DNA from: an uncultured Chloroflexota bacterium | GTDB lineage: Bacteria; Chloroflexota; Dehalococcoidia; Lucifugimonadales; CAJXCD01 | Direction of reading: 5' to 3' | Assembly: GCA_913051545.1 (NCBI GenBank) | Contig: CAJXCD010000006.1 | Coordinates: 3,680-67,679, forward strand | DNA: 64,000 bases | Part shown: positions 28,032-50,436 of the stretch, piece after piece | Layout of the letters: the number at the start of each line of letters is the position of its first letter | Numbering within the stretch: position 1 is the first letter of the stretch | Translations under genes and position numbers: made by a program | Notes under the pieces: generated by a model | The model's database searches: none | What the model was told of the DNA's origin: nothing | The model's input: the letters and a program-made list of their open reading frames with translations, nothing else

Positions 28032-28041
28032 ATAATCACCA

Positions 28042-28917: not shown

Positions 28918-28918
28918 C

Positions 28919-35707: not shown

Positions 35708-37162
35708 TTATGTAACATTTGAAGGCGCTATAACGATTGACTCTGATTGGTATGGTGCTATAAGGTCCTTTTCCTTCACGGTTGACACTTCCACAGGATC
35801 CAACGCAGATGTTTCGTTTATTAGACTGGAAGAAATCAGTGGTTCAACTAGGTTTTCAACGTCCGATAAACTAAACTTCTTTTCTGTATATCGATCTGTA
35901 AATCCTATTGGCTTTACAGTTTTAAATTTTGAAAATGACAGTTGTGTAGGGAGATTCAAGCTTAACCGAAGATGTCTTGCAACTTTCGCGACATTTCTGC
36001 GAGTACCAATAAAATTTTCGTGTAGGCCATAAGCATGTTCTTTGCATAAAGACCTTTTAGGGGAAGTCTGGCTTTTACTTAACATCTCAATAATTTTATC
36101 TGAAACTCTTCGATGAGAATTCCCGTCAACTTTGTGGAACCACTTATCTATGACCGTTTTCTGTTTGTTTTTTACTTCTTGGGGGACATCGAACTCCCCA
36201 TTTATTATTGAGCGTAGAGTTTTCACTAAAATGTTCTCCGAATCACAAGGTACGCTCATAGCTTCAGCCGACTCTAATAATGGCCATGATTCAATCCACC
36301 TCGGGGACAGCGCAGGTACCCCACCTAGTGTTGCATCGATTGCGGTAGAGCAATTCCTTTGAATAACGGCTGAAGCGCGTAATATCCAGCCCGATATATC
36401 TCCATATTTTATTACGTGAAGATTGTCGTTTTGTATCATCCCGTCATATCCACGTATGTTTTCGAAGGGATGAGGGCGGTATACGAATGTGACTTCAGGA
36501 AAAGATGAGGCTAATGAGTTAGCAAGTTGAATTAGCTGTGACATTGTTGCCTTTTGGATGTTTTGACGCTCAATGTATTCATCCCGTTTAAATCCATAAG
36601 TTCTATCTGCTGCATTGATTATAGATTCCGGGGTCGAAAATTGCGGATTTGCTAGTCCAGCTTTACTGCTGATTAGAACCATCGGTTTTGGGTATTCGTT
36701 AGCGTAAAGTGAAAACTGTTTAGAAGCTCTATTCCAAGGATTTTTGTAAAGATCGAATCTTGGAGATCCTGTGACTGTTATTTGTTTCTTGCTATACCAG
36801 CATCGTTGCTCGGCGATTTCGGCTAGTTGGGGTCCCCAGGTAAAAAAACCTTTGACCTTATTACGAAGGTCTGTATCTTCAGGTAGTGTTAGTTCGTAGT
36901 GATCCCAGTTTGCCCAGATGCCTTCTGTGTCCATCACACCGATTTGTATGTTAGCCTCTACGAGTTGCTTAGCGAATTCTTGGATATTTTTACGCAGGTA
37001 GTTAAGTAATACGAAGTCTGGGGCGAGGTGCCAGACCTCACGCTCGCGCTTATTAAATGGGACTAGATAACAAGTGACTCCACTTTTGCAGAGTCTTAGG
37101 GCAAGTAGGACTGCACCAGGGAGATCTCTATATGGGTGATCTACTATTAGTGATACTCGCAT
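35708..37162 (-). CDS. uncharacterised GT-B-like 'surface carbohydrate biosynthesis' protein (paralogue C, more divergent)
   Basis: 484 aa. 'ASAVIQRNCSTAIDATLGGVPALSP' and 'VDGNSHRRVSDKI' echo paralogues A and B. There is a TAATG overlap with the LmbE-like gene. Confidence 0.4.
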   Translation of the reverse strand: MRVSLIVDHPYRDLPGAVLLALRLCKSGVTCYLVPFNKREREVWHLAPDFVLLNYLRKNIQEFAKQLVEANIQIGVMDTEGIWANWDHYELTLPEDTDLRNKVKGFFTWGPQLAEIAEQRCWYSKKQITVTGSPRFDLYKNPWNRASKQFSLYANEYPKPMVLISSKAGLANPQFSTPESIINAADRTYGFKRDEYIERQNIQKATMSQLIQLANSLASSFPEVTFVYRPHPFENIRGYDGMIQNDNLHVIKYGDISGWILRASAVIQRNCSTAIDATLGGVPALSPRWIESWPLLESAEAMSVPCDSENILVKTLRSIINGEFDVPQEVKNKQKTVIDKWFHKVDGNSHRRVSDKIIEMLSKSQTSPKRSLCKEHAYGLHENFIGTRRNVAKVARHLRLSLNLPTQLSFSKFKTVKPIGFTDRYTEKKFSLSDVENLVEPLISSSLINETSALDPVEVSTVKEKDLIAPYQSESIVIAPSNVT

Positions 37163-37878
37163 TAGATAATCTTGCCGCCACTGTTTTTCGATTCACCTGA
37201 CCCTTTGAGAATTCTGACCAATTCGAATACTTCAGCTGATCTGACACCACTCATTCCTCCCCAGTATTTACAAGATGAAAGTATCATCTCAATTGACCTA
37301 GGGTGAGGAAATTCACGGACTTCACTTGAATATTTTTTCATAGCGTTAATTTTCAAATCAAGTGTGGTTTCAATATCTACAAAAACGTTAGGATGGAATC
37401 CACTGTTGATTTGGCTAAACCCCCATTCAGATGAAGGGATTTGGAATGTATATAACTCTTTCACGGTTGCTTCCGGTACTGGTCTTGATAATACAAGAGT
37501 GACTTCACCAGTAATCCTATGGTCGAGATTCAGGTCAGTTTGGGAATGGGTGTATATGACAGAAGGTTGTACTTCATCAAATACAGGCTGCAGGGCCCGT
37601 ATGATGTCCAGTCTTGGAATTTTATCAAGCTGTTGATCTGGTAAACCCAAGAACATAGTATCTTGAATGTTCAGTAGAGAAGCGGCTTCCTGAGCCATAC
37701 GTCGTCGTTCTTTTGAAATCGTGAGTGAGGTCCCGCTTAAGTCAGCATTATTGGACGTCTCACCATCCGACAGAAATATTACCGTGACTTGATCTTGATC
37801 GTGTAAAAGCGCAAGAGTTCCTCCGCATCCTAGGACCTCATCATCTGGATGAGCTGCTATTACCAATATGTTTTTCAT
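37162..37878 (-). CDS. LmbE/PIG-L family N-deacetylase
   Basis: 238 aa. Contains 'VIAAHPDDEVLGCGGT'. Confidence 0.85.
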   Translation of the reverse strand: MKNILVIAAHPDDEVLGCGGTLALLHDQDQVTVIFLSDGETSNNADLSGTSLTISKERRRMAQEAASLLNIQDTMFLGLPDQQLDKIPRLDIIRALQPVFDEVQPSVIYTHSQTDLNLDHRITGEVTLVLSRPVPEATVKELYTFQIPSSEWGFSQINSGFHPNVFVDIETTLDLKINAMKKYSSEVREFPHPRSIEMILSSCKYWGGMSGVRSAEVFELVRILKGSGESKNSGGKII

Positions 37879-37920: not shown

Positions 37921-38955
37921 TCATAATGAGCTGAAGAGTGTATCTGCTATGCGATATATTCCTTTACCATCTACTAGCCTTATGCCTGCACGTGACATGG
38001 AACTTCTGGCCTCGTAATTGTCTGATAGGGACAGGATTGTCTGAATTATGCTAGTGGACGTCACTTCATTTATTGGTCCAAGATATCTAGCAGCTTCAGT
38101 TTGATCTGCAAATTGTTTAGCTAAAGAATCTTGGTGATCTACAATGCTGACTAGTAATGCAGGCGTTCCTGAGGCTGCCAGTTCCAATTTTACATACCCT
38201 CCTGCACCGACTGCCAAATCGGCAGATTTCATGAGTTGCCCGAGTTTATTAGTACCTTCTATGAAAGTTATTTGACTGTAGTTTTGGTATCTGGTGGTAT
38301 CAATTAACCCTGCTCTATCAAATCCCATTATAAAATTCGTTTTGAAATTCTGGTTTCCCAATCCGTCAATAAGATTATTTATCCACATTTCTGATTTGGT
38401 AGACAATGACCCGCCCATCACAACTAGAAGGTTATTAATTTTCGGTGCGATTTCACGTGGAATATCTAGATTTTTGAAAGAATCGTCTAATATGAAATAA
38501 TCTGGGCCAGTTAAGAATACTTGTCCGGGTTCTGGGTCGGGATATTTCGATAACACTTGAGGGCATATGACAATATCTGCTTCCGGGTATGAATACCCTA
38601 AATCAGAGAAGCATATCAGTTTTTTGCAAATTTGTTTGTACAGCTTCAGACAATTTGGTTCGATATTTAATAGGTCAACTATAATTATGTCTGGAGCTAT
38701 TTGATCCATCCATTTGATTTCATCTTCCAAGCTTGGGTTACTCGGTACTTTAGTATATTTCTGTCCCCATTGGATTAAGGTGTCCTCTACCTTACTATCT
38801 CCCTCTGCGACCACTGTCACAGATATTTCAGGAGAGGTTCGTTCAAGGTATGAAGTTAAACGCAAAGTTCGTATCAGATGACCCCATCCGTACTTTATGC
38901 TCGCCTTGGTGCGAACTGCGAATGATGGATTTGTCAGGTTCACGACCCCAGCCAA
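37921..38955 (-). CDS. PseG-like UDP-sugar hydrolase (GT28-C-like fold)
   Basis: 344 aa. The N-terminal 'FAVRTKASIKYGWGHLIRTLRLTSYL' resembles the PseG 'R.D.s..iG.GH..R' opening. The start is uncertain (TTG 38955 or GTG 38943). Confidence 0.55.
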   Translation of the reverse strand: MAGVVNLTNPSFAVRTKASIKYGWGHLIRTLRLTSYLERTSPEISVTVVAEGDSKVEDTLIQWGQKYTKVPSNPSLEDEIKWMDQIAPDIIIVDLLNIEPNCLKLYKQICKKLICFSDLGYSYPEADIVICPQVLSKYPDPEPGQVFLTGPDYFILDDSFKNLDIPREIAPKINNLLVVMGGSLSTKSEMWINNLIDGLGNQNFKTNFIMGFDRAGLIDTTRYQNYSQITFIEGTNKLGQLMKSADLAVGAGGYVKLELAASGTPALLVSIVDHQDSLAKQFADQTEAARYLGPINEVTSTSIIQTILSLSDNYEARSSMSRAGIRLVDGKGIYRIADTLFSSL

Positions 38956-39058
38956 CTCGAATCAATATTTTTCTTGAACCCCAAAAAAATCATTTAAATT
39001 CGTGGTGCAAAATAGTTATTTTTGGCATAATAAGAGCTATAGGCAACTTCAGGATAAG

Positions 39059-40018
39059 TTAGTTGGAGGAATCAAAGCTTTTACCGTTCCATCTTATTGC
39101 CAGATCGTATAATTCGATATTCTTGATCGGTTTCCCATCTCCAATTTGAATAGAATTACATATCAGAATTCCACCCTCAGCTGCAATTGCTAGTCCCGTT
39201 GTAGGATTGGATCCATGGGTCCGATAGGGTCCTATTATTGCGCCGGGTTTATGGCGTGTATCCTTTCCTGTTTCAAGGATGCCAACATTCCACAGAAAAA
39301 TTTTTTCACCTTCCATCTTTGTGAATGCTCCAGGGAAAGGTGAAGTGACACCTCTTACCAAATTATAGATATCTTGGATAGGAGTAGACCAGTTTATAAA
39401 TCCATCTTCCGGCTTACGTGTTGGCCAGTAGCTTGATGATGAGTGATCTTGCGGTAATTTAGGTAAAGTCCCTTTTTTTAGTTTGGGTAGCATTTCTTTT
39501 ACGAGGTCGCAAGATATTTCCCCGACTCTATCTACTAAGGTTTGGGCATCGTCAAATTTAGATACAGGGAACGTTCTTTGAGATACGATGTCACCTTCGT
39601 CGGCTCCTGAAGTCAGCCAAAAGAGAGTGACTGCCCCCTCCGTTTTCCCTTTGATTAATGTCCATGGTATGGGAGCTCTCCCACGTCCTTCAGGCAGTTT
39701 GGTCATATGCAGACCTAAGGTTCCATATCTGGGCAACGAATATATGGATTTGTTTACTAATTGGCTCCATCCGAACACCATCATCCAATCAGGATCCGCA
39801 TTTTTTACAATTCTTTCCACTTTTGGACTATTAATGTCTGTAGTTTCTGTAAGAGGGAAATGGTATTCATTGGCAAGATGATCGAAAGAACAGTAGTTAC
39901 TGCGATAATGTTGAGAAGGTGGGTATCCGAAGACATGACAAGGTATTTCATTGGAGTCGCAGAGTGTTTCTAATATTTTTGCACTGATTGTCATACCGCC
40001 TACATATACTATTTTCAT
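39059..40018 (-). CDS. formyltransferase (Fmt/ArnA-N-like), probable sugar N-formyltransferase
   Basis: 319 aa. 'LGLHMTKLPEGRGRAPIPW' is a variant of H-x-S-L-LP-x-x-RG. The N- and C-terminal formyltransferase domain layout is present. There is an ATGA overlap with the sulfotransferase gene. Confidence 0.8.
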   Translation of the reverse strand: MKIVYVGGMTISAKILETLCDSNEIPCHVFGYPPSQHYRSNYCSFDHLANEYHFPLTETTDINSPKVERIVKNADPDWMMVFGWSQLVNKSIYSLPRYGTLGLHMTKLPEGRGRAPIPWTLIKGKTEGAVTLFWLTSGADEGDIVSQRTFPVSKFDDAQTLVDRVGEISCDLVKEMLPKLKKGTLPKLPQDHSSSSYWPTRKPEDGFINWSTPIQDIYNLVRGVTSPFPGAFTKMEGEKIFLWNVGILETGKDTRHKPGAIIGPYRTHGSNPTTGLAIAAEGGILICNSIQIGDGKPIKNIELYDLAIRWNGKSFDSSN

Positions 40019-41244
40019 TTGGAAGCTAGCTCTCTATTAGAGATAGATACGGATTGTCTTATTACTTCGAAAAAGTCAGTGTCCAGAAAAAATGCTTTCT
40101 GAATCGAATCGGGTACTGGTTGAGATGAGTGAAGAATGGAAGAGCGCAACAATTCCAAAGAGATGTCGCTGACTTTTGACTCGCCATTAACTTGTGAATA
40201 CGGTCTTATCCAGGTAGCAAGGTCTTTTACATCCACTTCTGGTGAGTCAAACATTAGGCTTAGGGGTACTCTAGAAGTGGATGCTATGTCTGGTTGATAG
40301 CCAAATATTTCCATTTCGGGATAGCATAAATGTTCGATGAACTGTATTTCAGGACTCGTCAGCGCATTTTTCCACCTATCGATCGAATCTAGGTTGAAAG
40401 AGCGTGTAGCTTGAAAATTTTGGTAAGATGAATTCTGACTCCATTTACTTCCGGTCCCATCTACAAAAGTATTTGGATCTATCATTGATGGATCGAAGTT
40501 CATATTCAAGAAATCACAAACCTTTTTTGCTTCCATTTCCGGGTCTGAAACTAATTGCTCATATTTAAGTAATAGAACTCTGTCAGATGTGTTTGGGGAT
40601 TTATACACGCTTTGCCACGCTAGTGTGGCTAATTTTCTCCATTGCCGAATTAGAAATAACCATGGATATTTTTCTTGTACACTTTGTTGACTGTTCTTTG
40701 AAGCGCAGATTGCTCGTGGGTCTCTCATTACGTGGATAACCTTTGCTTCCGGGAAACTTTCAAGAATGTGATTGGCGAATTCTCCAGCCCATGTAACTTT
40801 GAAGCCAACAGTGTGTGAGGTGGTCTGTCCATAGGCTTTTTGAACAATATCGAATCCGGAATCTATCAATTCCACGTAGTTGCAGCCATTTAGCTGGTCC
40901 AAAAACGGTTCTATTTTGGGTGATATGGGACGTAAGAAATGAGCGATTCGTTTTCTGAGGTTAGGCATTTCCGACTGGTCTTTAGTTAAATCAAACGATG
41001 TTTGCTGAATGGCCTTTAGAACAGATTGTTTTTCAGGGTAGTAGTAGTAATCGTCTAAAGGGGCTTCAGGGTCGACGGTATAGCCTGGTACGAGATTAGA
41101 AGCTACGTCATTACGAAACTCTTTAAACAAGGGTATGTATGGATCCACTGCACAGCACGCTTTAGAGTGGGCCTGAAGCATTCTGGCCAAGAGGGTAGTA
41201 CCAGAACGGAACATACCAGTTATGAAGACGGGTTGATAAGTCAT
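40015..41244 (-). CDS. PAPS-dependent sulfotransferase family protein
   Basis: 409 aa. 'FITGMFRSGTTLLARML' is the 5'-PSB loop and 'VIHVMRDPRAICASK' is a 3'-PB-like motif. Confidence 0.8.
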   Translation of the reverse strand: MTYQPVFITGMFRSGTTLLARMLQAHSKACCAVDPYIPLFKEFRNDVASNLVPGYTVDPEAPLDDYYYYPEKQSVLKAIQQTSFDLTKDQSEMPNLRKRIAHFLRPISPKIEPFLDQLNGCNYVELIDSGFDIVQKAYGQTTSHTVGFKVTWAGEFANHILESFPEAKVIHVMRDPRAICASKNSQQSVQEKYPWLFLIRQWRKLATLAWQSVYKSPNTSDRVLLLKYEQLVSDPEMEAKKVCDFLNMNFDPSMIDPNTFVDGTGSKWSQNSSYQNFQATRSFNLDSIDRWKNALTSPEIQFIEHLCYPEMEIFGYQPDIASTSRVPLSLMFDSPEVDVKDLATWIRPYSQVNGESKVSDISLELLRSSILHSSQPVPDSIQKAFFLDTDFFEVIRQSVSISNRELASK

Positions 41245-41349
41245 AGTCTAGGGATCTATTCCTCACATAGGTATATATGTTCTATCCAGCAGTTCAGTAC
41301 TTATATGGATAGTGAACAGAATTCATATATACTTAGAATTCGGGATTTT

Positions 41350-42417
41350 CTACTCGTTGTATCGCAGAAACATATCCCAAGATAAAGGTTCGTCATCTTC
41401 TATATCACGTATAGCAGTAGCACCTATTACTACATCCATTAGTTCTGTAGGTATTCCTGTGCCAGGTCTTTTCACTGCGATCTTTTCCTCGGTAACCAAC
41501 TCACCAGCATTTATTGGCGTAGCGGCGCATAGACTGCGTCTTCCAACGTCTTTCATTGCCTGCTCAGCAGGTGTACTAATTTTTCTTGGACTACCTAGTA
41601 CCATTTCTATGAAATCTCTTGCTTGTACGAGTGAATCGAGCTGGTCTGGAGTAAGCGAGAAGTGATGGTCAGGCCCTGGTAGGCTCTGGTCGACAGTGAT
41701 GTGTTTTTCTATCATGTTTGCCCCGATAGAAATAGCAACTTTGGACACGTCAATGCCAGGGGTGTGATCTGAGAACCCCACTGGACGTCCAAAAGCCGCC
41801 TTCATTGTCGGTATAGCTTTCAAGTTTACATCTTTAGGGTCAGTAGGGTAATTTGAGACACAATGGAGAAGAATGATTTGGTCGTTTCCTGTTTCCGTTA
41901 TTGTATTTATTGCTTTCTCAATATCACCCAGAGTCGACATTCCAGTGGACAGCACAATAGGCTTGCCTGTCTCACCCACACGCCTTATTAGTGGGAAATG
42001 GGTCATTTCGAACGATGCTATCTTGAAAACAGGAACATCAAATTCTTCCAGTATTCCTACATCTTCTATTCCAAATGGAGTCGACATAAAAGGGATCCCG
42101 ACTTCATGACAATATTCAACTACGGCTGGTTGAATTTCATACGGGAATTCTGTGGCTTGTATAAGGTCGAACATTGTTGCATCGTCGCCCACTTCCATAC
42201 GAGAACGGAAATGTTCCATCATAGGAGTTTTTTTTGAGTACATCTGCTCTGCTTCGTAGGATTGGAATTTCACAGAGTCTGCATTTGCATGAACTGCCAT
42301 GTCCACAAGTTGCTTCGCAAGATCCAATTGTTGGTTGTGATTACATCCCGCTTCAGCAATTATAAAACTAGGATTGCCGTCACCCACTACTCGCTGGCCT
42401 ATGCTAACGGTTTTCAT
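41350..42417 (-). CDS. NeuB-family synthase (module 3; PseI-like by context), with SAF-like C-terminus
   Basis: 355 aa. Contains 'PSFIIAEAGCNHNQQLDLAKQLVDMAVHANADSVKFQSY'. Confidence 0.9.
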   Translation of the reverse strand: MKTVSIGQRVVGDGNPSFIIAEAGCNHNQQLDLAKQLVDMAVHANADSVKFQSYEAEQMYSKKTPMMEHFRSRMEVGDDATMFDLIQATEFPYEIQPAVVEYCHEVGIPFMSTPFGIEDVGILEEFDVPVFKIASFEMTHFPLIRRVGETGKPIVLSTGMSTLGDIEKAINTITETGNDQIILLHCVSNYPTDPKDVNLKAIPTMKAAFGRPVGFSDHTPGIDVSKVAISIGANMIEKHITVDQSLPGPDHHFSLTPDQLDSLVQARDFIEMVLGSPRKISTPAEQAMKDVGRRSLCAATPINAGELVTEEKIAVKRPGTGIPTELMDVVIGATAIRDIEDDEPLSWDMFLRYNE

Positions 42418-42437
42418 TATATCCTCCTTGAAATTTG

Positions 42438-43175
42438 TTAGGATTGTAAATCATCCCAAGCCTGAATTAGTTCTCCCAGAGAGAACATGTCATCGTTAGT
42501 AGACAATTTTCCATACAACTTTTCCATCGTATGGAAGGACTCAGGAGTGTCTACAGAGATGTTGATATCCGGTCTATCTAATCCACTTGGTGCTTTGATA
42601 GTGCCTACTCTATATTTATCCCTATTATCATAAGCATAAAAATATATGTGCTCACGATACTTGTGGCGTGAGTCTGCACCAAGGGTGTCAGAATCAAGTC
42701 GAAGTAGACATTCTCCTGTAGAAACCTCAGCACCAGCCCCAAAAGGGTATGAGTTGTTTAGAAATGGAGAGCAGACGTCTAGCCTATCACTCTCGAGTTT
42801 TTTGATCGTGTGGCGGATAACTTCAGGGTCTATTGCCATGTTGTCAGCATTCACTCTGACTACGATGTCAGCCGAGTCATACTGCAACACTTCTATAAAA
42901 CGAGAAAGCACATCATCTTCACTGCCACGGTGAAATGCCCACGAATACTTTTCTGATAGGTCAGATAGCACGTCATTCTCCGTGTTCACAGATGTAGCGA
43001 GGTAAACTTCGTCTAATGTGTTGCATGCCTGTATTCTTCTCATAACCTGTACTATTGAAGGATATCCGTTTAATGGCAACAGGACTTTCCCTGGGAGTCT
43101 TGTAGAACCCATCCTAGCTTGCACTATTGCAATTACTCTAGCCAAAAACCTTTTTCCCAGTTCGTTGAAATTCAC
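42438..43175 (-). CDS. SpsF/PseF-type cytidylyltransferase (CTP_transf_3-like)
   Basis: 245 aa. Contains 'VIAIVQARMGSTRLPGKVLLPL'. The listed start is GTG; a downstream TTG is also possible. Confidence 0.8.
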   Translation of the reverse strand: MNFNELGKRFLARVIAIVQARMGSTRLPGKVLLPLNGYPSIVQVMRRIQACNTLDEVYLATSVNTENDVLSDLSEKYSWAFHRGSEDDVLSRFIEVLQYDSADIVVRVNADNMAIDPEVIRHTIKKLESDRLDVCSPFLNNSYPFGAGAEVSTGECLLRLDSDTLGADSRHKYREHIYFYAYDNRDKYRVGTIKAPSGLDRPDINISVDTPESFHTMEKLYGKLSTNDDMFSLGELIQAWDDLQS

Positions 43176-43177
43176 AG

Positions 43178-43918
43178 TTAGGTTCCATAGTTTACATGAC
43201 TTTCCCAGTCAGGGTTTCTTCCTTTGAGGACTGTATTCAAGGTATTTGGTCCTTCATGGAATATCAGATCTATTATAGATAGGTAAGGAGTGAATTCACG
43301 GTTTGCCACGTCATATGTGGGGTGGGTATAGTTTTGGAATACAAATGAAACATTTCGACTATGGAATTTCGACGGATCAATATATCCCTTCGATCCATTG
43401 TTAGCTAGGTAAGTTGTGGCGTCCAACCTGGCACAAATTTCAGCCAGCTTATCATCTCGTTCAAATCCAACATTCAAATCCGAGCTTAATATAAGATTGT
43501 CTGACATTCCAAGTTTTTTATATATCCATTTTATAAGAGTAAGATTTAATTCCACTAGGTAGGTCCAATGGCTTTCTAGAATTTCGGTCAATTCGTCACG
43601 GTAATGCTGAAACCAAGGTGACTGACGGTAAACGTGGTCAATAGATTTAATAATGCGTGATTGCCATGGTGTGTCGTAACTGATTTCGACTTGATTGATC
43701 TTCACTTGCTGGGACGATTTTTTGGTAGGTATACTAAGCCACATCCACCCTCGGTCTGAAGAATCTGGTATTCGATTTCTGTTGACCCATTCCCGTCGAG
43801 GAAATTGGACGTCGTCAAGCATTACATACACATCGGATCTGTGTCCCATCTCTAAGTATCCGAGCCAGGGCAGAAAATTCGGTTGGCAAATTGCAACAAT
43901 TTTCTGGGATGTTTTCAA
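43178..43918 (-). CDS. WbqC-like family protein (function unknown)
   Basis: 'IVAICQPNFLPWLGYLEM' is the typical WbqC opening. I prefer TTG 43918, which forms a TTGA overlap with the radical-SAM stop, over the listed 43984 and over ATG 43960. Confidence 0.65.
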   Translation of the reverse strand: MKTSQKIVAICQPNFLPWLGYLEMGHRSDVYVMLDDVQFPRREWVNRNRIPDSSDRGWMWLSIPTKKSSQQVKINQVEISYDTPWQSRIIKSIDHVYRQSPWFQHYRDELTEILESHWTYLVELNLTLIKWIYKKLGMSDNLILSSDLNVGFERDDKLAEICARLDATTYLANNGSKGYIDPSKFHSRNVSFVFQNYTHPTYDVANREFTPYLSIIDLIFHEGPNTLNTVLKGRNPDWESHVNYGT

Positions 43919-45516
43919 TCTCCCATACTGGCAACAACTTTTTCGTAGCCCATCTTCCATGGAGTTCCTGCCCAGTCTTTGCAACTTTTACACACTCTTT
44001 CATCCGGAATTTCGTCGTTTAGGTGTTCCATCCTGTTCATCCAGTAGTGGTGGCTGTGCCATGCATTGTGCACAGAAGTTTGATCCATAGATCTGTAAGC
44101 GGTTTTCTGCTGCCAGTCGATTGGACATGCTTTTAGAACGCCTTGATGGTTTATAACGACCCGTCGGAAGAAATGTACGCAGGGCCACCTGTGATCCCAG
44201 CCTGCAAATTCACTTTCCGAAGTTGCCACAAGTCCTACGTTCGAAATCATTTCTCGGATTAACACTTCATCTACAATGGGTGTCCAATAATTTACAAAAT
44301 CATCCAGTTCATGAATATTGGCACCTTGTTTTACGAAGCTGACCATAATTTTTGTTGATGCACCCAGTTCATCACGAATTTTTATGAATTCGTGAACACT
44401 TCCAACCACCTTGTCCCACTTTAGCCCTGTTCTAACAACCTCGAATGTTTCTGGAGTAGATGCATCAAGGGAGAAGTCTACCATGAATAACCCGGCCTCT
44501 ATGAGCTTGCGTATCCTGTCTGGTTTAAGTAGTGAGCCATTCGTTGTAAGCCCAACCGGTCCTACACCTTTTTCTTTCGCATACTTAACCATATCTACGA
44601 GCTGCTTATGTACTAGAGGTTCTCCGTCTGCAGTAATACGGACAAATTGTATTTTGTGTTCTGAGCACTCATCTATGACTTGTTTATATGTCTCCATGCT
44701 AAGGTGCCCTCGTTCTGATAGGAAATCTGGCTTTCCTCCGTTAAGGTTTGTTAGAGATTGAGGGCAATGGATACACTTGGCATTACATATATTGATGATA
44801 TCGAACATTATGTAGGTTGGGAACTCTGCACACTCTGGAGATTCAAACCCGTACGCTGCAGGCATTTTCCTTTCATCGACTCGTAGAGCTGTAACATCAG
44901 GTTGGTAAAGGGGAGCATCTTCTCCTGCTTTTTTAGCAATGGACAAGAATCCACCCAAACCCCATTTGGTCTTACCATTGCTGTTTTCAACCAGTAGACG
45001 AAGTGAAGGTGAATCCCTGCTGTCCAGAAGAGTGTCCTCATAAGGCGTTTGATGAACCATGTCGTAATGAAACTTGAATTCTGAGGGATTGGATTGGATA
45101 TGATTTATACAATCCTTCGGTGAGTTAAACACTTCCTGTTCTAATACCCTTGTGGAAATTGCTCTCACTCCAATTCCAACTGGTAGCCGGCAGTGTTCCC
45201 ATTGGGTAAAGTAGTCTATTTTTTGTGGACGGAAAGATTTCAGACCTTCGGATACGATTTGTTGGTCTAAAAAGATCTGGTTACTATCCACCAATACCAG
45301 AGAGTCTGCTTCCACTGATTCTGCAAATTGAACTAGTGCGTTGAAGTCATCAAATCGTTTTGTTTCAGCATGTGTGTGGATACTATTTGGATCCCACACC
45401 ACCGATTCAAAACATATCTCACTTAGTTTTTCCAGAAAGCGACTTTTCTCCCACAGGTGCGTAACGCTAATATCGGAGCCACTCATGTCTAGAACTAGAA
45501 GGTTTTTGTCTGTCAC
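43915..45516 (-). CDS. radical SAM protein with ~230-aa N-terminal extra domain and Cys-rich (SPASM/twitch-like) C-terminus
   Basis: 533 aa. CX3CX2C 'CNAKCIHC' lies at aa 244-251. The C-terminus reads 'CVHFF...CPIDW...CKSCKDW'. The GTG start is preceded by AGAGGTGA. Confidence 0.8.
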   Translation of the reverse strand: MTDKNLLVLDMSGSDISVTHLWEKSRFLEKLSEICFESVVWDPNSIHTHAETKRFDDFNALVQFAESVEADSLVLVDSNQIFLDQQIVSEGLKSFRPQKIDYFTQWEHCRLPVGIGVRAISTRVLEQEVFNSPKDCINHIQSNPSEFKFHYDMVHQTPYEDTLLDSRDSPSLRLLVENSNGKTKWGLGGFLSIAKKAGEDAPLYQPDVTALRVDERKMPAAYGFESPECAEFPTYIMFDIINICNAKCIHCPQSLTNLNGGKPDFLSERGHLSMETYKQVIDECSEHKIQFVRITADGEPLVHKQLVDMVKYAKEKGVGPVGLTTNGSLLKPDRIRKLIEAGLFMVDFSLDASTPETFEVVRTGLKWDKVVGSVHEFIKIRDELGASTKIMVSFVKQGANIHELDDFVNYWTPIVDEVLIREMISNVGLVATSESEFAGWDHRWPCVHFFRRVVINHQGVLKACPIDWQQKTAYRSMDQTSVHNAWHSHHYWMNRMEHLNDEIPDERVCKSCKDWAGTPWKMGYEKVVASMGD

Positions 45517-45555
45517 AAGTCACCTCTCATAATTTCCTCGTTATATTAGTGTATT

Positions 45556-46494
45556 TTACAAAGGGTCAAAATGACTGTCAGGGATTTCGCCTGATTTTGC
45601 CACTAGCATCAATCCCTCTTCTAGATTGATTTTTGGAGTATATCCTAGAGTTTCATTTGCTTTGGAAATATCTGGAATCCTCGTCCATATTTCCCTTCCT
45701 GACTTCCGAGTAGAAGCAGATAAGGGTACGAATTCAGGTTGGATACCATTTCCTAACAGCGATGTTACTTTATTCGCAAGGTCAGACATGGATATTTTAG
45801 ACTCTGGGTTCCCTATGTTGAATGTATGGTTTGAGATGTCATCGTCAAGAAGAGAAGCTATTGCTGAAACTCCATCAGCTACATAACAAAATGCCCTAAT
45901 CTGACTACCATCTCCGTACACGACGGGTGATTGTCCTCTTTGTACAGAAGCAATAAATCGTGGGATTACAAATTCAGATGTTTGACCCGGACCATACATA
46001 TTGAACAGACGAACTATATTCCAGTCAATATTGTATCTTTGGGCGTAAGCTTTGAGATATTCCTCTGCAGTGATTTTTGAAATACCATATACGGACCGAG
46101 GGTTCAGTGGAGAGTCTTCTCTTATAGGTACCATTACAGGTTCTCCGTATACCTCTGAAGATGACGCTAGAACCACTTTTTTAACCTGCTCTCTGACACA
46201 TGCCTCCAGCAAATTTATAGTTCCTTGAACATTTACATTGAGGCACTGGAGAGGTGATGATTCAGTACGTTTTACACCTAACATGGCAGCTAGATGAATT
46301 ACATAATCGCAGTCTTGGACAGAATTCATCAGGTCATTAGTGTCCAGAATACTGCCAGATATGCACTCTATGTTATTGGCATCAGCCATGTTGAGGTCTA
46401 ACGCCCGAACTTGTAAGTCAGGTCGGACTTCAGTTATATGACGAACCATGGATCTTCCGACAAATCCTGCTGCGCCTGTTATTAATACTCGCAT
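45556..46494 (-). CDS. NAD-dependent epimerase/dehydratase (extended SDR)
   Basis: 312 aa. Contains 'VLITGAAGFVG', 'ASSSEVYG' and 'YGISK'. Confidence 0.85.
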   Translation of the reverse strand: MRVLITGAAGFVGRSMVRHITEVRPDLQVRALDLNMADANNIECISGSILDTNDLMNSVQDCDYVIHLAAMLGVKRTESSPLQCLNVNVQGTINLLEACVREQVKKVVLASSSEVYGEPVMVPIREDSPLNPRSVYGISKITAEEYLKAYAQRYNIDWNIVRLFNMYGPGQTSEFVIPRFIASVQRGQSPVVYGDGSQIRAFCYVADGVSAIASLLDDDISNHTFNIGNPESKISMSDLANKVTSLLGNGIQPEFVPLSASTRKSGREIWTRIPDISKANETLGYTPKINLEEGLMLVAKSGEIPDSHFDPL

Positions 46495-46498
46495 GGGT

Positions 46499-47698
46499 TT
46501 ATATGTCCCTGTATTTATGAATATAGTGTGAAGATACTTTCTCTATGGCTTTAATGACATCTTGCACGTCTTGATCTGTCATTTGCGGGAAAATTGGAAG
46601 AGTTAACAACCTGTCATATGCGTTTTCTGCATTTGGGAAATCCCCGGGTAGGTAGCCGAAACGATGCTTGTAGTAAGAATGCATGTGGACAGGTCGGTAG
46701 TGGACATTTACACCAATATTTTCCGCCCTCATATCCTTGTATATTTCCTTGCGACCAACACTCAATGTATTCAGATTCAATAGGATTGGATAGATATGCC
46801 AGCTTGGGTTATTCTCAGGCATGACTGTTATAGGTTCAAGGATATTTGATTTTTTGAATGACTTGTCATAAGACTGAGCAATTTCGCGCCTGCGTTTGAT
46901 GGAGTCATTCACCTTTGATAGCTGACGAAATCCCAATGCAGATTGAAAGTCGGAGAGTCGGTAGTTATATCCTAAATCAGACATGTCTGAAACCCACTCG
47001 CCAGCTTTATTACGTTGTCGGCTATTTGTGGACATCCCATGGTTTCGAAATCCACGTATACGTTTTGCCCATTCGTCATTGGAAGTTACTACCATCCCGC
47101 CTTCTCCCGTAGTTATATGTTTTACGGGGTGGAAGCTGTAACAGGCCAGATGACCTATGGTACCTGCCTGTTTTCCTTTGTAGGTAGAGCCCATCGCGTG
47201 ACAAGCGTCCTCTATCACGACGAGTTTATATTCTTCAGCAAGGCTCATAACTTGATCCATTTCGCAAGGTTGCCCAGCGTAGTGCATAACTATTATCCCT
47301 TTGGTTTTCGATGTAATTTTCTTTTCTATTTCCTTGGGAGAAATACACAGTGTGTTTGGATCAACATCAGCGAATACTGGAGATGCGCCTTGATAGAGTA
47401 TGCAATTTGCTGTTGCAGCGAAAGTGAGAGGGGAAGTGATTACCTCATCTCCTGATGTAAAGCCTGCAGCAAACGAAGCTGCATGCAGAGCAGCAGTTCC
47501 GGAGCTAACTGCTATGGCATATTCTACGTTGTTCCAGGCAGCAAAACTGGACTCAAATTTTTCAACTGTTGGGCCTGTTGTTAACCAATCGCCCCTGAGG
47601 ATATTACTAACTGTTTCAATATCTGTATCGTCCAAATGTTGTCTGCCATAGGGTAGAAATTTCTTTCTGACAGGTGTCCCGCCAAGTGAGGCTAACAA
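46499..47698 (-). CDS. pseC: DegT-family aminotransferase, PseC-like
   Basis: 399 aa. Contains 'FLPYGRQHLDDTDIETVSNILRGDWLTTGPTVEKFE ... AIAVSSGTAALH'. The TTG start has GGTGA upstream. Confidence 0.8.
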   Translation of the reverse strand: MLASLGGTPVRKKFLPYGRQHLDDTDIETVSNILRGDWLTTGPTVEKFESSFAAWNNVEYAIAVSSGTAALHAASFAAGFTSGDEVITSPLTFAATANCILYQGASPVFADVDPNTLCISPKEIEKKITSKTKGIIVMHYAGQPCEMDQVMSLAEEYKLVVIEDACHAMGSTYKGKQAGTIGHLACYSFHPVKHITTGEGGMVVTSNDEWAKRIRGFRNHGMSTNSRQRNKAGEWVSDMSDLGYNYRLSDFQSALGFRQLSKVNDSIKRRREIAQSYDKSFKKSNILEPITVMPENNPSWHIYPILLNLNTLSVGRKEIYKDMRAENIGVNVHYRPVHMHSYYKHRFGYLPGDFPNAENAYDRLLTLPIFPQMTDQDVQDVIKAIEKVSSHYIHKYRDI

Positions 47699-47768
47699 AT
47701 CGTCACCACTATAGGTAAATTTGATATTTTGTGTGCGTTATGGATATCTGCCAAGGGCTGCAACATTA

Positions 47769-48545
47769 TCACTTACTCACACTAAATATTGACGTGCAAA
47801 CCATTTGACCGCTTTCGGTAAGTAGTTCTTCTTGCCAGAAAATATGTCCGACATTATCTCCAAAATAATGAAACATTTCCTTCAGTCCACCACTCAATTG
47901 GGTGCCGACCTGAGGTTTTGTGGTAGGGGAATGAACGAACGCTACAGCAATAAGACCATTAGGTTTTGTAACTCTAACCGATTCAGAACATGCAAGCCTG
48001 ATATCGTTACTGTACCTAAGCACGTAGGAACTATACAGTACATCGAACTGATTGTCTTGGAAGTTCATCTCGTGCATATCCATTATGTCTATAAGCGGAC
48101 TGTAGCTGAATAGGTCTATAGCACTGATCTTACGGAGGTCGAATCCGTAAAGACTCATCAATAAAACTTCGGCCTCATTTCTCGGACCTATACAGAGAAC
48201 CTTGCTATTATTCTTGTCTATACCTCCGATGGTCCCCAGAACACTCAATAATCTTTCAGTTCGGTTACGGCTAATTTTCCATACCAAACTTTCGTTGTAA
48301 GGAAGGACATTTTCAGTGACGTGGTCATCTCCTACTAGAGGCACCGTATCGAGGTACCTACGAGGAATTCTTAGTATTTTGTGTTTAAATCTCCTAAGGT
48401 TAAACCATATTCCAAATGTTAAGGGACGTCTCATGAAATAATTCATATAGGATGGTGTGATCGGCGAGGGTGGCGCAATATAACGGCGGATAATATTTCT
48501 TAACCGGAAACGTGTACCGGCTATTTTTCTGAGGTAGTTAGTCAT
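47769..48545 (-). CDS. class I SAM-dependent methyltransferase-like protein
   Basis: 258 aa. Contains 'VLCIGPRNEAEVLLM', 'FDVLYSSYVLRY' and 'VTKPNGLIAV'. Confidence 0.6.
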   Translation of the reverse strand: MTNYLRKIAGTRFRLRNIIRRYIAPPSPITPSYMNYFMRRPLTFGIWFNLRRFKHKILRIPRRYLDTVPLVGDDHVTENVLPYNESLVWKISRNRTERLLSVLGTIGGIDKNNSKVLCIGPRNEAEVLLMSLYGFDLRKISAIDLFSYSPLIDIMDMHEMNFQDNQFDVLYSSYVLRYSNDIRLACSESVRVTKPNGLIAVAFVHSPTTKPQVGTQLSGGLKEMFHYFGDNVGHIFWQEELLTESGQMVCTSIFSVSK

Positions 48546-50393: not shown

Positions 50394-50436
50394 TGTTTCA
50401 CGATGGACGTATATTACTGGCGATCTCTGAAGAAAT

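What the first reader, a model, noticed from the sequence alone, without database searches (positions are those of the whole stretch)
43178..45516. Radical-SAM enzyme with a large unassigned N-terminal domain, translationally coupled to a WbqC-like protein inside a sugar pathway
The 533-aa CDS has CX3CX2C ('CNAKCIHC') only at aa 244-251. It is preceded by ~230 aa of unassigned sequence and followed by a Cys-rich tail ('CVHFF..CPIDW..CKSCKDW') suggestive of an auxiliary Fe-S (SPASM/twitch-like) domain.

Its TGA stop overlaps the probable TTG start of a WbqC-family protein of unknown function (TTGA at 43915-43918). The pair lies between the PseC-like/SDR genes and the cytidylyltransferase/NeuB genes. 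That position is where a sugar-tailoring step, such as C-methylation, epimerisation, deoxygenation or C-C bond chemistry, would act.
Basis: partly seen in the sequence, partly recalled or inferred. Interest (0 to 1): 0.7.

Follow-up and report, generated by a model that had tools for sequence, protein, structure and literature searches.

The report
Radical SAM enzyme in sialic-acid-like pathway
A marine bacterium's cell-surface sugar gene cluster encodes a rare, uncharacterised radical-SAM enzyme whose N-terminal third is a degenerate copy of the neighbouring sugar-activating enzyme; it almost always occurs with a WbqC gene in operons for sialic-acid-like sugars, a pathway in which I found no report of radical chemistry.

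Summary
The 533-aa CDS (43915-45516, minus strand) is intact and identical in an independent assembly. Its only CX3CX2C is at aa 244-251, and its TGA overlaps a TTG start of a WbqC gene.

The "unassigned" N-terminal ~205 aa is now assigned. It has a cytidylyltransferase (CTP_transf_3) fold, homologous to the SpsF-like enzyme two genes downstream, but lacks the CTP-binding signature. It is probably a ligand-binding module.

The Cys-rich tail is a BtrN-type twitch domain. It has four invariant Cys, implying one auxiliary cluster, so it is not a full SPASM domain.

The fusion family is rare: 34 hits among 1.84 billion representative proteins. It is spread over many phyla and is named only generically.

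In 24 of 27 related loci with enough flank, a WbqC gene lies nearby. NeuB, a cytidylyltransferase, a PseG-like protein, an SDR and a DegT aminotransferase usually accompany it. A common form is the tight operon rSAM-SDR-DegT-NeuB-PseG-CTP_transf_3-WbqC.

Function is inferred, not shown. The most likely chemistry is BtrN-like H-abstraction and oxidation of a sugar carbinol on a nucleotide-linked or nonulosonate intermediate. Epimerisation and DesII-like elimination are rivals. Interest is moderately high.

The parts
43915..45516 (-). Three-module radical SAM enzyme, 533 aa, GTG start
   Evidence: ORF. Pfam Radical_SAM E 1.6e-16. 118 homologues, about 100 of them full length. AF2 pLDDT 91.5 and pTM 0.90. 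An independent assembly is identical.
44902..45516 (-). N-terminal domain (about aa 1-205): degenerate cytidylyltransferase (CTP_transf_3 / GT-A-like) fold lacking the CTP-binding signature
   Evidence: hhalign against the operon's SpsF-like enzymes gives prob 95%, E 3.3e-8. The N-domain HMM hits the CTP_transf_3 ORFs of related loci. AF2 pLDDT is 94.2. The Foldseek top hit is 6oew, a Leptospira cytidylyltransferase, E 1.2e-7, TM 0.64. The R-x-x-S-x-R-L-x-G-K signature invariant in the true enzymes is absent.
44821..44901 (-). Conserved linker (about aa 206-232) with invariant D214, G223-F224-E225 and near-invariant R216; retained even in short forms that lack the N-domain
   Evidence: Invariant columns. 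Short forms L015, L018 and L021 keep only this segment upstream of the core.
44764..44787 (-). CX3CX2C motif (C244, C248, C251) for the SAM-binding [4Fe-4S] cluster
   Evidence: Motif position, codons read, invariant in 44 sequences.
44227..44820 (-). Radical SAM partial TIM-barrel core (about aa 233-430), including the ITADGEP motif
   Evidence: Pfam aa 240-379. Profile matches to MoaA, BlsE, BtrN and viperin cores.
43972..44190 (-). Twitch domain (about aa 443-515) with four invariant Cys (C446, C464, C509, C512), implying one auxiliary [4Fe-4S] cluster
   Evidence: Invariant Cys. The Pfam SPASM model is below its cut-off. The region aligns to the BtrN twitch region, including the Cys of 'LPCF' and both Cys of 'LCKNC'. 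BtrN is the top Foldseek hit, E 3.6e-11, TMt 0.75.
43915..43918 (-). TTGA overlap of the rSAM stop codon with the probable WbqC start codon
   Evidence: Sequence. Junction comparison with 7 related loci.
43178..43918 (-). WbqC-family protein, 246 aa from the TTG at 43918 (longest ORF starts at 43984)
   Evidence: PF08889 E 3.4e-68. Alignment of 15 orthologues. A WbqC gene is present in 24 of 27 informative rSAM loci.
45556..46494 (-). SDR (RmlB/LegB-like NAD-dependent dehydratase/epimerase), immediately upstream of the rSAM
   Evidence: Pfam Epimerase E 1.1e-57. LegB model 169 bits, below its cut-off. An SDR is adjacent to the rSAM in 14 related loci: 11 downstream and 3 upstream.
46499..47698 (-). 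DegT-family aminotransferase, PseC-like
   Evidence: TIGR03588 PseC 454.3 bits, above its 423.5 cut-off.
42438..43175 (-). SpsF-like CTP_transf_3 cytidylyltransferase, the catalytic paralogue of the rSAM N-domain
   Evidence: Pfam E 5.6e-23. Matches 6oew at E 4.4e-34.
41350..42417 (-). NeuB-family nonulosonate synthase with SAF domain
   Evidence: Pfam NeuB E 3.7e-85 and SAF 4.3e-12.
40015..41244 (-). Sulfotransferase-family protein; this family recurs next to WbqC in related loci
   Evidence: Sulfotransfer_3 E 2.1e-27. Present in 10 of 27 informative loci.
39059..40018 (-). ArnA-like N-formyltransferase
   Evidence: Pfam and NCBIfam.
37921..38955 (-). PseG/SpsG-like protein (GT28 C-terminal fold)
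   Evidence: TIGR03590 89.8 bits, below its cut-off. Present in 15 of 27 informative loci.
37162..37878 (-). PIG-L family de-N-acetylase
   Evidence: Pfam E 2.6e-28. Also follows the PseG-like gene in L004 and L014.

Best explanation
The gene encodes a sugar-tailoring radical SAM enzyme dedicated to a WbqC-containing nonulosonic-acid (sialic-acid-like) pathway. It has three modules.

1. An N-terminal paralogue of the operon's own SpsF-like cytidylyltransferase. It has lost the CTP-binding signature. It most likely only binds the sugar acid, the CMP-sugar or another nucleotide-sugar ligand, or docks the enzyme to its pathway partners.
2. A canonical radical SAM core.
3. A BtrN-type twitch domain holding one fully Cys-ligated auxiliary [4Fe-4S] cluster.

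Proposed mechanism, all steps inferred:
- The reduced radical-SAM cluster cleaves SAM.
- The 5'-deoxyadenosyl radical abstracts H from a secondary carbinol carbon of the bound sugar.
- The substrate radical passes one electron to the auxiliary cluster, giving a keto-sugar. This is a net two-electron oxidation, as in BtrN.
- Pathway partners then resolve the ketone. DegT could transaminate it, or WbqC or the SDR could isomerise or reduce it.

Sub-confidences:
- Domain assignments: about 0.9.
- Acts on a sugar or nonulosonate intermediate of this pathway: about 0.85.
- The N-domain is non-catalytic: about 0.75.
- The chemistry is specifically oxidation: about 0.35.
For: Shown here:
- The radical SAM motif and Pfam match.
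- Four invariant C-terminal Cys. Their region aligns with the BtrN twitch domain.
- BtrN is the best structural match, E 3.6e-11, TMt 0.75. The next matches include BlsE, MoaA, DesII and viperin, which act on sugars or nucleotides, alongside peptide-modifying SPASM enzymes such as SuiB.
- The N-domain is a CTP_transf_3 homologue by profile-profile comparison (prob 95%, E 3.3e-8). It is also one by HMM hits to the operons' own cytidylyltransferases and by fold (6oew, E 1.2e-7). The same structure, 6oew, is the best match of the adjacent SpsF-like enzyme (E 4.4e-34).
- The CTP signature is absent from the N-domain.

Context:
- There are 45 distinct family loci. Of the 27 with at least 8 kb of flank, 24 have WbqC, 19 NeuB, 18 CTP_transf_3, 18 an SDR, 15 DegT and 15 a PseG-like gene.
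- Tight rSAM-SDR-DegT-NeuB-PseG-CTP_transf_3-WbqC operons recur.
- In Planctomycetota-type loci the rSAM overlaps a Capsule_synth-like (KpsC/KpsS-family) gene.
- In two loci the rSAM sits directly before DegT and no SDR was found in the fetched flank: 10 kb each side for the P0053 locus, 4.2 kb upstream and 10 kb downstream for L056. This fits a role in making the ketone that DegT aminates. In the butirosin pathway a DegT-family transaminase likewise acts on BtrN's product (established knowledge).
- Standalone relatives at 30-31% identity, with the same Cys pattern, lie in WbqC-SDR-DegT loci that have no NeuB.
Against: - No substrate, product or cofactor content has been measured.
- Identity to BtrN is only about 17%.
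- Twitch and SPASM enzymes also catalyse epimerisation, thioether formation and other reactions, so the fold does not fix the chemistry.
- Most loci have an SDR that could already supply the keto-sugar for DegT.
- Four complete short forms lack the N-domain, so it is not essential for catalysis.
- The stage at which the enzyme acts is unresolved. The N-domain homology and the Capsule_synth-like partner point to a CMP-nonulosonate. The standalone relatives in NeuB-less loci point to a nucleotide-hexose.
- Three loci with enough flank show no WbqC. L001 and L012 have only the rSAM and the Capsule_synth-like gene. L009 is cut by its contig end.
Confidence: 0.45

Rival explanations
1. Radical SAM epimerase. 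H is abstracted from a stereocentre of the sugar or nonulosonate and returned from the opposite face, as in NeoN or the peptide epimerase EpeE/YydG. This would set a stereochemistry that the RmlB/LegB-like SDR cannot deliver, for example an L-configured or C4/C8-epimeric nonulosonate.
For: The DegT passes the PseC equivalog cut-off, and PseC acts on an L-altro sugar. The SDR is not PseB-like (63.6 bits against a 407.75 cut-off), so an inversion step is unaccounted for. The twitch-type epimerase EpeE is among the Foldseek hits. C284 is nearly invariant and could in principle donate H. Many nonulosonate stereoisomers exist whose epimerases are unknown (established knowledge).
Against: Epimerisation next to a 4-keto group needs only acid-base chemistry, which WbqC could supply. 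C284 lies in the 'DEC' at the end of the first core helix, probably away from the barrel's active face; this is inferred from the secondary structure and could not be checked in coordinates. EpeE ranks well below BtrN.
Confidence: 0.2
2. DesII-like radical lyase. After the SDR and DegT make a nucleotide-linked 4-amino-4,6-dideoxy sugar, the rSAM abstracts the C3 hydrogen and eliminates ammonia (or water from a diol, as AprD4 does). The product is a 3-keto deoxy sugar, leading to a more deoxygenated nonulosonate.
For: The SDR + DegT + rSAM trio has the same composition as DesIV/DesI/DesII (established knowledge). DesII structures are among the Foldseek hits (8hzv, E 9e-10) and the profile hits. 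The rSAM is adjacent to an SDR or to DegT in about 20 loci.
Against: To my knowledge DesII has no auxiliary cluster, whereas four auxiliary Cys are invariant here. Removing the amine would make the PseC-like step pointless unless a second amination follows.
Confidence: 0.15
3. Bifunctional enzyme. The N-domain is an active nucleotidyltransferase that makes a CMP- or NDP-sugar and hands it directly to the radical SAM domain.
For: The fold and homology are those of cytidylyltransferases. One homologue (P0098) has a precomputed NTP_transf_3 Pfam hit.
Against: The N-terminal R-x-x-S-x-R-L-x-G-K signature is invariant in the operon's true enzymes and is present in 6oew. It has no counterpart in the N-domain. 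The D-N of 'ADN' is replaced by x-Q. Pfam CTP_transf_3 does not match the window protein. A separate CTP_transf_3 gene was detected in 18 of the 27 informative loci.
Confidence: 0.06
4. SPASM-type peptide or protein maturase (RiPP or enzyme-cofactor maturation) that merely sits in a glycan locus.
For: The best NCBIfam scores include maturases such as the tungsten-cofactor oxidoreductase maturase, mycofactocin and PqqE models. SuiB and CteB appear among the Foldseek hits.
Against: All those scores are far below their cut-offs. Only one auxiliary cluster is possible, and no RRE domain was seen. Linkage to sugar genes holds across many phyla, including compact islands such as L025 that contain only sugar genes.
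Confidence: 0.03

Closest known systems
BtrN (2-deoxy-scyllo-inosamine dehydrogenase, butirosin pathway; PDB 4M7T)
   Same: Both have a radical SAM core plus a twitch domain with one auxiliary [4Fe-4S] cluster. BtrN is the best structural match (E 3.6e-11, TMt 0.75). The twitch regions align at sequence level, including three of the four Cys ligands, with the same 18/45/3 spacing (BtrN residue numbers partly from memory). In both pathways the enzyme works with a DegT-family aminotransferase.
   Different: Identity is about 17%. BtrN has about 250 residues and no N-terminal domain. Its substrate is a free aminocyclitol in an aminoglycoside pathway, and there is no 2-deoxy-scyllo-inosose synthase here. 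The chemistry of the present enzyme is untested.
DesII (TDP-4-amino-4,6-dideoxyglucose deaminase; PDB 8HZV) and BlsE (cytosylglucuronate decarboxylase; PDB 7VOB)
   Same: Both are radical SAM enzymes acting on nucleotide- or nucleoside-linked sugars. Both are strong fold and profile matches. DesII follows an SDR dehydratase and a DegT-type aminotransferase, as this enzyme may.
   Different: DesII lacks the four-Cys auxiliary site (from memory). Neither enzyme has a cytidylyltransferase-like domain. Neither belongs to a nonulosonate pathway. NCBIfam BlsE scores 52 bits against a 400 cut-off.
SpsF/PseF-type CTP_transf_3 cytidylyltransferases (e.g. PDB 6OEW; CMP-Kdo and CMP-Kdn synthetases)
   Same: The N-domain shares their fold. 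It also shares the central motifs ('V-x-x-D-N-x-x-I-D' versus 'V-D-x-x-Q-x-F-L-D', and 'YPFGxG' versus 'RLPVGxG').
   Different: The N-domain lacks the N-terminal CTP-binding signature. It is fused to a radical SAM enzyme and is not recognised by Pfam CTP_transf_3.
TIGR04321 'spiro-SPASM protein'
   Same: The layout is similar: a model of about 510 positions with the radical SAM plus SPASM part starting near position 225. The model is the third-best NCBIfam hit.
   Different: It scores 73 bits against a 250 cut-off. Only positions 225-505 align, so the N-terminal regions are not detectably related. The N-domain profile found no such proteins among 1.84 billion representatives. The held literature has nothing on its function.
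Canonical pseudaminic/legionaminic acid pathways (PseBCHGIF; LegBCHGIF; Bacillus subtilis sps operon)
   Same: The locus supplies an SDR, a PseC-like aminotransferase, a PseG/SpsG-like protein, a NeuB-type synthase and a PseF/SpsF-type cytidylyltransferase.
   Different: The tight operons have no PseH/LegH-type N-acetyltransferase. The SDR is not PseB-like. Two extra genes, the rSAM and WbqC, are conserved. I found no paper linking radical SAM enzymes to these pathways.

Membership tests
Radical SAM superfamily (PF04055) | CX3CX2C cluster motif and a Pfam match above the gathering score | tested here: met
   C244/C248/C251. 61.4 bits against a 29.5 cut-off. The motif is invariant in 44 homologues.
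Radical SAM superfamily (PF04055) | Reductive cleavage of SAM to the 5'-deoxyadenosyl radical | not testable with these tools
   Requires anaerobic biochemistry.
SPASM domain (PF13186; two auxiliary clusters, seven-Cys motif) | Pfam score above the cut-off and the CX2CX5CX3C block with seven or more conserved Cys | tested here: not met
   17.8 bits against a 21.5 cut-off. Only four Cys are conserved after the core, and only CX2C remains of the block.
Twitch subclass (BtrN-like, one auxiliary cluster) | Truncated SPASM fold with four Cys ligands (C...C...CX2C) for a single auxiliary [4Fe-4S] cluster | tested here: met
   C446, C464, C509 and C512 are invariant. The region aligns to the BtrN twitch region. 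BtrN is the top Foldseek hit. Actual cluster content was not measured.
BtrN orthologue (DOIA dehydrogenase) | Close sequence relationship and a 2-deoxystreptamine pathway context | tested here: not met
   About 17% identity. The context is nonulosonate, with no aminocyclitol genes found among the window ORFs scanned with Pfam.
TIGR04321 spiro-SPASM | Full-length match above the 250-bit cut-off | tested here: not met
   73 bits, and only model positions 225-505 align.
CTP_transf_3 cytidylyltransferases (N-domain) | Nucleotide-diphospho-sugar transferase fold homologous to CMP-ulosonate synthetases | tested here: met
   hhalign prob 95%, E 3.3e-8. Foldseek 6oew E 1.2e-7, TM 0.64, followed by CMP-Kdo and CMP-Kdn synthetases.
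CTP_transf_3 cytidylyltransferases (N-domain) | N-terminal CTP-binding signature (R-x-x-S-x-R-L-x-G-K) and a Pfam match | tested here: not met
   The signature is invariant in A3 and present in 6oew. It is absent from all N-domains. The window protein has no Pfam CTP_transf_3 hit.
WbqC family (PF08889), downstream gene | Full-length Pfam match | tested here: met
   230 bits against a 21.3 cut-off, covering profile positions 1-217 of 218. The family itself has no known function.
Pseudaminic acid pathway (as a whole) | The PseB, PseC, PseH, PseG, PseI and PseF equivalogs are all present | tested here: not met
   Only PseC passes its cut-off (454 against 423.5). The PseB, PseG, PseI and PseF models are below their cut-offs. 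None of the ten locus genes scanned (37921-48545) is PseH-like.

The most novel reading that the evidence does not exclude
The radical SAM enzyme, together with WbqC, defines a previously unrecognised branch of nonulosonic-acid biosynthesis. Radical oxidation would install a keto group that NAD-dependent enzymes of the canonical routes do not make. In some operons it would replace the SDR step before DegT. The result would be a new class of sialic-acid-like sugars on the surfaces of marine and sediment bacteria, for example ones with an extra amino group, a retained 9-hydroxyl or altered stereochemistry, often sulfated. The degenerate cytidylyltransferase domain would be a dedicated substrate-capture module for a CMP-sugar.
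Probability: 0.2. Interest if true: 0.8.

Novelty: new variant of a known kind. Interest (0 to 1): 0.6.

Why it matters
Nonulosonic acids (sialic, pseudaminic, legionaminic and related acids) decorate bacterial surfaces and flagella. They shape interactions with phages and hosts. All characterised routes to them use NAD-, PLP- and acyl-CoA-dependent enzymes.

A conserved radical SAM enzyme in such operons would add radical chemistry to this pathway class. It also points to sugar structures that have not yet been described chemically.

The architecture is of interest in itself. The enzyme carries a degenerate copy of the pathway's own activating enzyme as a probable substrate-binding domain. 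This is a clear case of a catalytic domain being reused for ligand recognition in a radical SAM protein.

The tight link to WbqC also gives a concrete handle on a large family (at least 881 clusters) that has had no function for about twenty years. The recurring WbqC-SDR-DegT triad places WbqC at the 4-keto or 4-amino-6-deoxyhexose stage.

Tried and rejected
- Sequence searches of the PDB with the N-domain profile found nothing (best E 0.15). The fold was recognised only after structure prediction and profile-profile comparison.
- The WbqC profile has no relative in the PDB. The 15 WbqC orthologues hit no second Pfam family even at E up to 10.
- Literature searches gave nothing functional: WbqC; radical SAM with nonulosonic, pseudaminic or legionaminic; twitch with sugar; spiro-SPASM; radical SAM with cytidylyltransferase and NeuB.
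- Look-ups of P0052 (Pseudodesulfovibrio cashew) and P0077 returned no contig.
- I considered that the ATG 46 nt upstream of the rSAM stop is the WbqC start. I rejected it as unsupported. The same position is GTG in L003 and L023 only because it falls within the conserved Pro-Trp codons of the rSAM. Homologues with unambiguous starts begin 1-9 residues before 'VAICQP'.
- I considered a separate N-domain gene in the short-form loci L015, L018 and L021. None was found by HMM or tblastn.
- I considered that the window's unknown 484-aa protein matches the Capsule_synth-like partner of the Planctomycetota loci. There is no similarity.
- C-methylation was rejected as unlikely, because this protein has no cobalamin-binding or HemN-like module.
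- No tRNA or other taxonomic marker was found in the window. The organism is known only as an uncultured marine bacterium.


Full report
**1. What is in the sequence**

All genes of interest lie on the minus strand, inside one surface-polysaccharide locus of about 60 kb.

The ORF 43915-45516 encodes 533 aa from a GTG. GTG is the first possible start after an in-frame stop. It is preceded by GAGAGGTGA. Homologues align from residue 4 onward.

CNAKCIHC begins at aa 244 and is the only CX3CX2C. The other Cys are at 35, 109, 136, 229, 284, 446, 464, 509 and 512. Pfam Radical_SAM matches aa 240-379 (E 1.6e-16). The SPASM model matches aa 446-513 below its cut-off, at 17.8 against 21.5 bits.

The stop TGA (43915-43917) overlaps an in-frame TTG (43916-43918) of the next ORF, which is a full-length WbqC protein (PF08889, E 3.4e-68).

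The gene order around the pair, in the direction of transcription, is:
- methyltransferase (47769-48545)
- PseC-like DegT (46499-47698)
- SDR (45556-46494)
- rSAM
- WbqC
- SpsF-like CTP_transf_3 (42438-43175)
- NeuB (41350-42417)
- sulfotransferase (40015-41244)
- formyltransferase (39059-40018)
- PseG-like protein (37921-38955)
- PIG-L deacetylase (37162-37878)

An independent marine-metagenome contig of 28.6 kb is identical over 41000-48000, so there is no assembly frameshift. A single 151-nt metatranscriptome contig matches 44152-44301. This is weak evidence of transcription.

**2. The protein is a conserved fusion and belongs to a rare family**

A search of 5.8 billion protein clusters returned 118 relatives. 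About 100 cover the full length at 37-69% identity. They come from Planctomycetota, Desulfobacterota, Myxococcota, Rhodospirillaceae, Spirochaetales, Fibrobacterota, Paceibacteria and others. All carry only generic names.

A profile of the N-terminal 232 aa was searched against 1.84 billion representative proteins. It found 34 proteins at E <= 1e-3. The 24 at E <= 1e-30 are members of this fusion family or short fragments. The N-terminal module is therefore essentially specific to this family, and the family is small.

No NCBIfam model reaches its cut-off. The best are the tungsten-cofactor oxidoreductase maturase model (84 bits against 380), MoaA (77.5 against 284) and spiro-SPASM (73 against 250, aligned only over model positions 225-505).

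**3. The C-terminal part is a radical SAM core plus a BtrN-type twitch domain**

In 44 aligned homologues the invariant Cys are C244, C248 and C251 plus C446, C464, C509 and C512. Four ligands allow one auxiliary cluster, not the two of a SPASM domain.

The full-length AlphaFold model is confident (pLDDT 91.5, pTM 0.90). Its best match among solved structures is BtrN (4M7T, E 3.6e-11, TM 0.75 on the target). BlsE, SuiB, MoaA, DesII and viperin follow.

A family profile also finds BtrN by sequence (E 1.3e-9). A second aligned stretch covers the twitch region. There 'KaCP' pairs with BtrN 'LPCF', and 'lCkeCkD' pairs with 'LCKNCNN'. These are the positions I recall as the auxiliary-cluster ligands C187, C232 and C235 of BtrN. 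The 18/45/3 spacing is the same here.

**4. The N-terminal part is a degenerate cytidylyltransferase**

A profile-profile comparison of the N-domain alignment with the SpsF-like CTP_transf_3 enzymes of these same operons gives 95% probability and E 3.3e-8. It covers N-domain residues 57-155.

The N-domain HMM also hits the CTP_transf_3 ORFs of ten related loci, with E between 1e-7 and 1e-2.

The domain modelled alone has pLDDT 94.2. Its best structural match is 6OEW, a Leptospira cytidylyltransferase (E 1.2e-7, TM 0.64 over 242 columns). CMP-Kdo and CMP-Kdn synthetases, IspD and GT-A glycosyltransferases follow. 6OEW is also the best match of the window's own SpsF-like enzyme (E 4.4e-34).

The true enzymes share an invariant N-terminal A-R-x-x-S-x-R-L-x-x-K block and an 'ADN' motif. 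The N-domain has 'LLVLDMSG...' in place of the first block, and x-Q80 in place of D-N. What it conserves instead is DYFTQWEHCRLPVGxGxR plus D165, R167, D214 and R216.

I read this as a paralogue that kept a ligand pocket and lost nucleotidyl transfer.

Four complete short forms of the family lack the domain. They keep only the invariant linker (D214...G223-F-E225) ahead of the core. The domain is therefore an accessory, not part of the catalytic machinery.

**5. Genomic context**

I fetched 45 distinct family loci from genome and metagenome collections. I scored them with the window's proteins as queries.

Among the 27 loci with at least 8 kb of flank:

| Gene | Loci with it (of 27) |
|---|---|
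| WbqC | 24 |
| NeuB | 19 |
| CTP_transf_3 | 18 |
| SDR | 18 |
| DegT | 15 |
| PseG-like | 15 |
| Sulfotransferase | 10 |
| Capsule_synth-like protein (~530 aa) | 8 |

Three loci lack WbqC. L001 and L012 contain only the rSAM and the Capsule_synth-like gene. L009 is cut by a contig end.

Three arrangements recur.
- (a) SDR-rSAM-WbqC-SpsF-NeuB, as in the window, L003, L023, L004 and L014.
- (b) A tight operon rSAM-SDR-DegT-NeuB-PseG-CTP_transf_3-WbqC (L022, L044, L053, L055, and L052 with the cytidylyltransferase displaced).
- (c) rSAM overlapping a Capsule_synth-like gene, convergent with SDR-DegT-NeuB-PseG-CTP_transf_3-WbqC-sulfotransferase. This includes L025, a compact island among housekeeping genes.

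At the rSAM-WbqC junction, overlaps of 1-4 nt recur in L004, L021 and L016. The immediate downstream gene is more often an SDR (11 loci) than WbqC (9) or DegT (5).

In the P0053 locus and in L056 the rSAM directly precedes DegT, and no SDR was found in the fetched flank. That flank is 10 kb each side for P0053, and 4.2 kb upstream and 10 kb downstream for L056.

None of the tight operons contains a PseH-type acetyltransferase.

PAPS-synthesis genes lie near the rSAM in L021 and L024.

**6. WbqC more widely**

WbqC is a large family, with at least 881 clusters, and is still described as uncharacterised.

Away from nonulosonate genes, WbqC sits in a fixed WbqC-SDR-DegT triad. In L027 the triad follows an NTP-transferase in a four-gene operon with no rSAM. 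In L026 and L028 it lies in Arn-like loci with GT2, AsnB-like, LPG_synthase_TM and formyl- or acetyltransferase genes, plus a PMT_2 gene in L028.

Those two loci also carry standalone rSAM-twitch proteins. They are 30-31% identical to aa 218-528 of the window enzyme and have the same Cys pattern.

So WbqC does not need the rSAM, but this rSAM clade keeps company with WbqC, an SDR and DegT. The triad suggests that WbqC acts on the nucleotide-linked 4-keto or 4-amino-6-deoxyhexose.

My tentative guess is a cofactor-free epimerase or isomerase, or else the missing N-acyl transfer step. This rests on the invariant His/Tyr/Asp residues and on the missing inversion and acylation steps. Nothing here tests it.

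**7. Mechanism**

Shown:
- the domain composition
- the capacity for two clusters
- the loss of the CTP signature
- the pathway association

Inferred: the enzyme abstracts a hydrogen from a sugar carbon of a pathway intermediate held with the help of the N-domain.

I favour BtrN-like two-electron oxidation of a secondary alcohol, with the auxiliary cluster taking the electron, for three reasons. BtrN is the closest structure and shares the twitch site. In butirosin biosynthesis a DegT-family aminotransferase uses BtrN's ketone product. And in two loci the rSAM occupies the place of the SDR directly before DegT.

Epimerisation and DesII- or AprD4-type elimination remain real alternatives. Methylation is unlikely.

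The stage at which the enzyme acts is unresolved. The N-domain homology and the Capsule_synth-like partner (a family of CMP-Kdo-dependent transferases) argue for a CMP-nonulosonate. The standalone relatives in NeuB-less loci argue for a nucleotide-hexose.

**8. Comparison with what is known, and novelty**

The enzyme works like a twitch radical SAM sugar enzyme. It is not an orthologue of BtrN, DesII, BlsE or the spiro-SPASM family (see the membership tests).

The locus resembles the pseudaminic/legionaminic and Bacillus sps pathways, but it lacks PseB- and PseH-type enzymes and adds the rSAM and WbqC.

I found no paper connecting radical SAM enzymes with nonulosonate biosynthesis. The library searched is incomplete.

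I rate this a new variant of a known kind: a known superfamily and subclass, with a new domain fusion in a pathway context not previously described.

**9. Verdict**

Function remains to be shown experimentally. Interest 0.6.

Noticed in passing
window 26976-28055, 33532-34401, 41350-42417; 23049-23774, 34401-35594, 42438-43175: The window carries three NeuB paralogues. Two have a SAF domain and are 35% identical to each other; one is a 289-aa form without SAF. It also carries three stand-alone CTP_transf_3 genes (one fused to a HAD phosphatase) and a UDP-GlcNAc 2-epimerase (23775-24926). The locus may therefore make up to three different nonulosonic acids.
   Followed up: partly
L001 11605-13179; L008, L010, L011, L012, L025 11599-13215, L030: In Planctomycetota-type loci the rSAM stop overlaps the start of a protein of about 524-538 aa. 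That protein has a weak Capsule_synth (KpsC/KpsS-like) match and is a candidate CMP-ulosonate transferase. L001 and L012 contain this pair without any WbqC or NeuB within the fetched flank.
   Followed up: partly
window 40015-41244; L005-L011, L017, L025; L021 8271-9428; L024 735-3475: A Sulfotransfer_3 protein sits next to WbqC in many loci, and PAPS-synthesis genes (ATP-sulfurylase, APS kinase) lie nearby in two. The nonulosonate or its glycan may therefore be sulfated.
   Followed up: partly
L026 7003-8928, L028 3457-4374 and 6979-8013: Loci with the WbqC-SDR-DegT triad but no NeuB look like Arn-type lipid-linked aminosugar pathways. They carry GT2, LPG_synthase_TM, AsnB-like and formyl- or hexapeptide acyltransferase genes, plus PMT_2 in L028. 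Each has two standalone rSAM-twitch/SPASM genes related to the window enzyme.
   Followed up: partly
L027 9162-12963: A compact four-gene operon, NTP_transferase-WbqC-SDR-DegT, sits among unrelated genes. It is the minimal context for WbqC and a good starting point for finding its function.
   Followed up: no
window 35708-37162: This 484-aa protein has no Pfam family. It has a clear orthologue (E 4e-97) in the closest related locus, L023 6286-7824, also within the glycan cluster.
   Followed up: no
window 48661-49590, 49605-50477, 28042-29019, 15453-16706, 16777-18552: Five further ORFs of 290-591 aa inside the polysaccharide locus have no Pfam match. The adjacent pair 48661-49590 and 49605-50477 are not similar to each other.
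   Followed up: no
L019 17310-18854, L006 4987-6408, L005, L010, L011, L016: In many related loci the CTP_transf_3 enzyme is 470-570 aa long, with a C-terminal extension of about 250-300 aa and no Pfam match. In L019 a short part of that extension is weakly hit by the N-domain HMM.
   Followed up: no
L018 7904-9862; P0053 locus; L026 12999-14417: Cobalamin-binding (class B) radical SAM genes also recur in these glycan loci, next to the rSAM/WbqC genes. Several radical enzymes may therefore act on the same glycan.
   Followed up: no
window 44152-44301: One 151-nt contig from a seawater metatranscriptome matches the twitch-coding part of the rSAM gene exactly. This is a hint of expression in situ, although DNA carry-over cannot be excluded.
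   Followed up: partly
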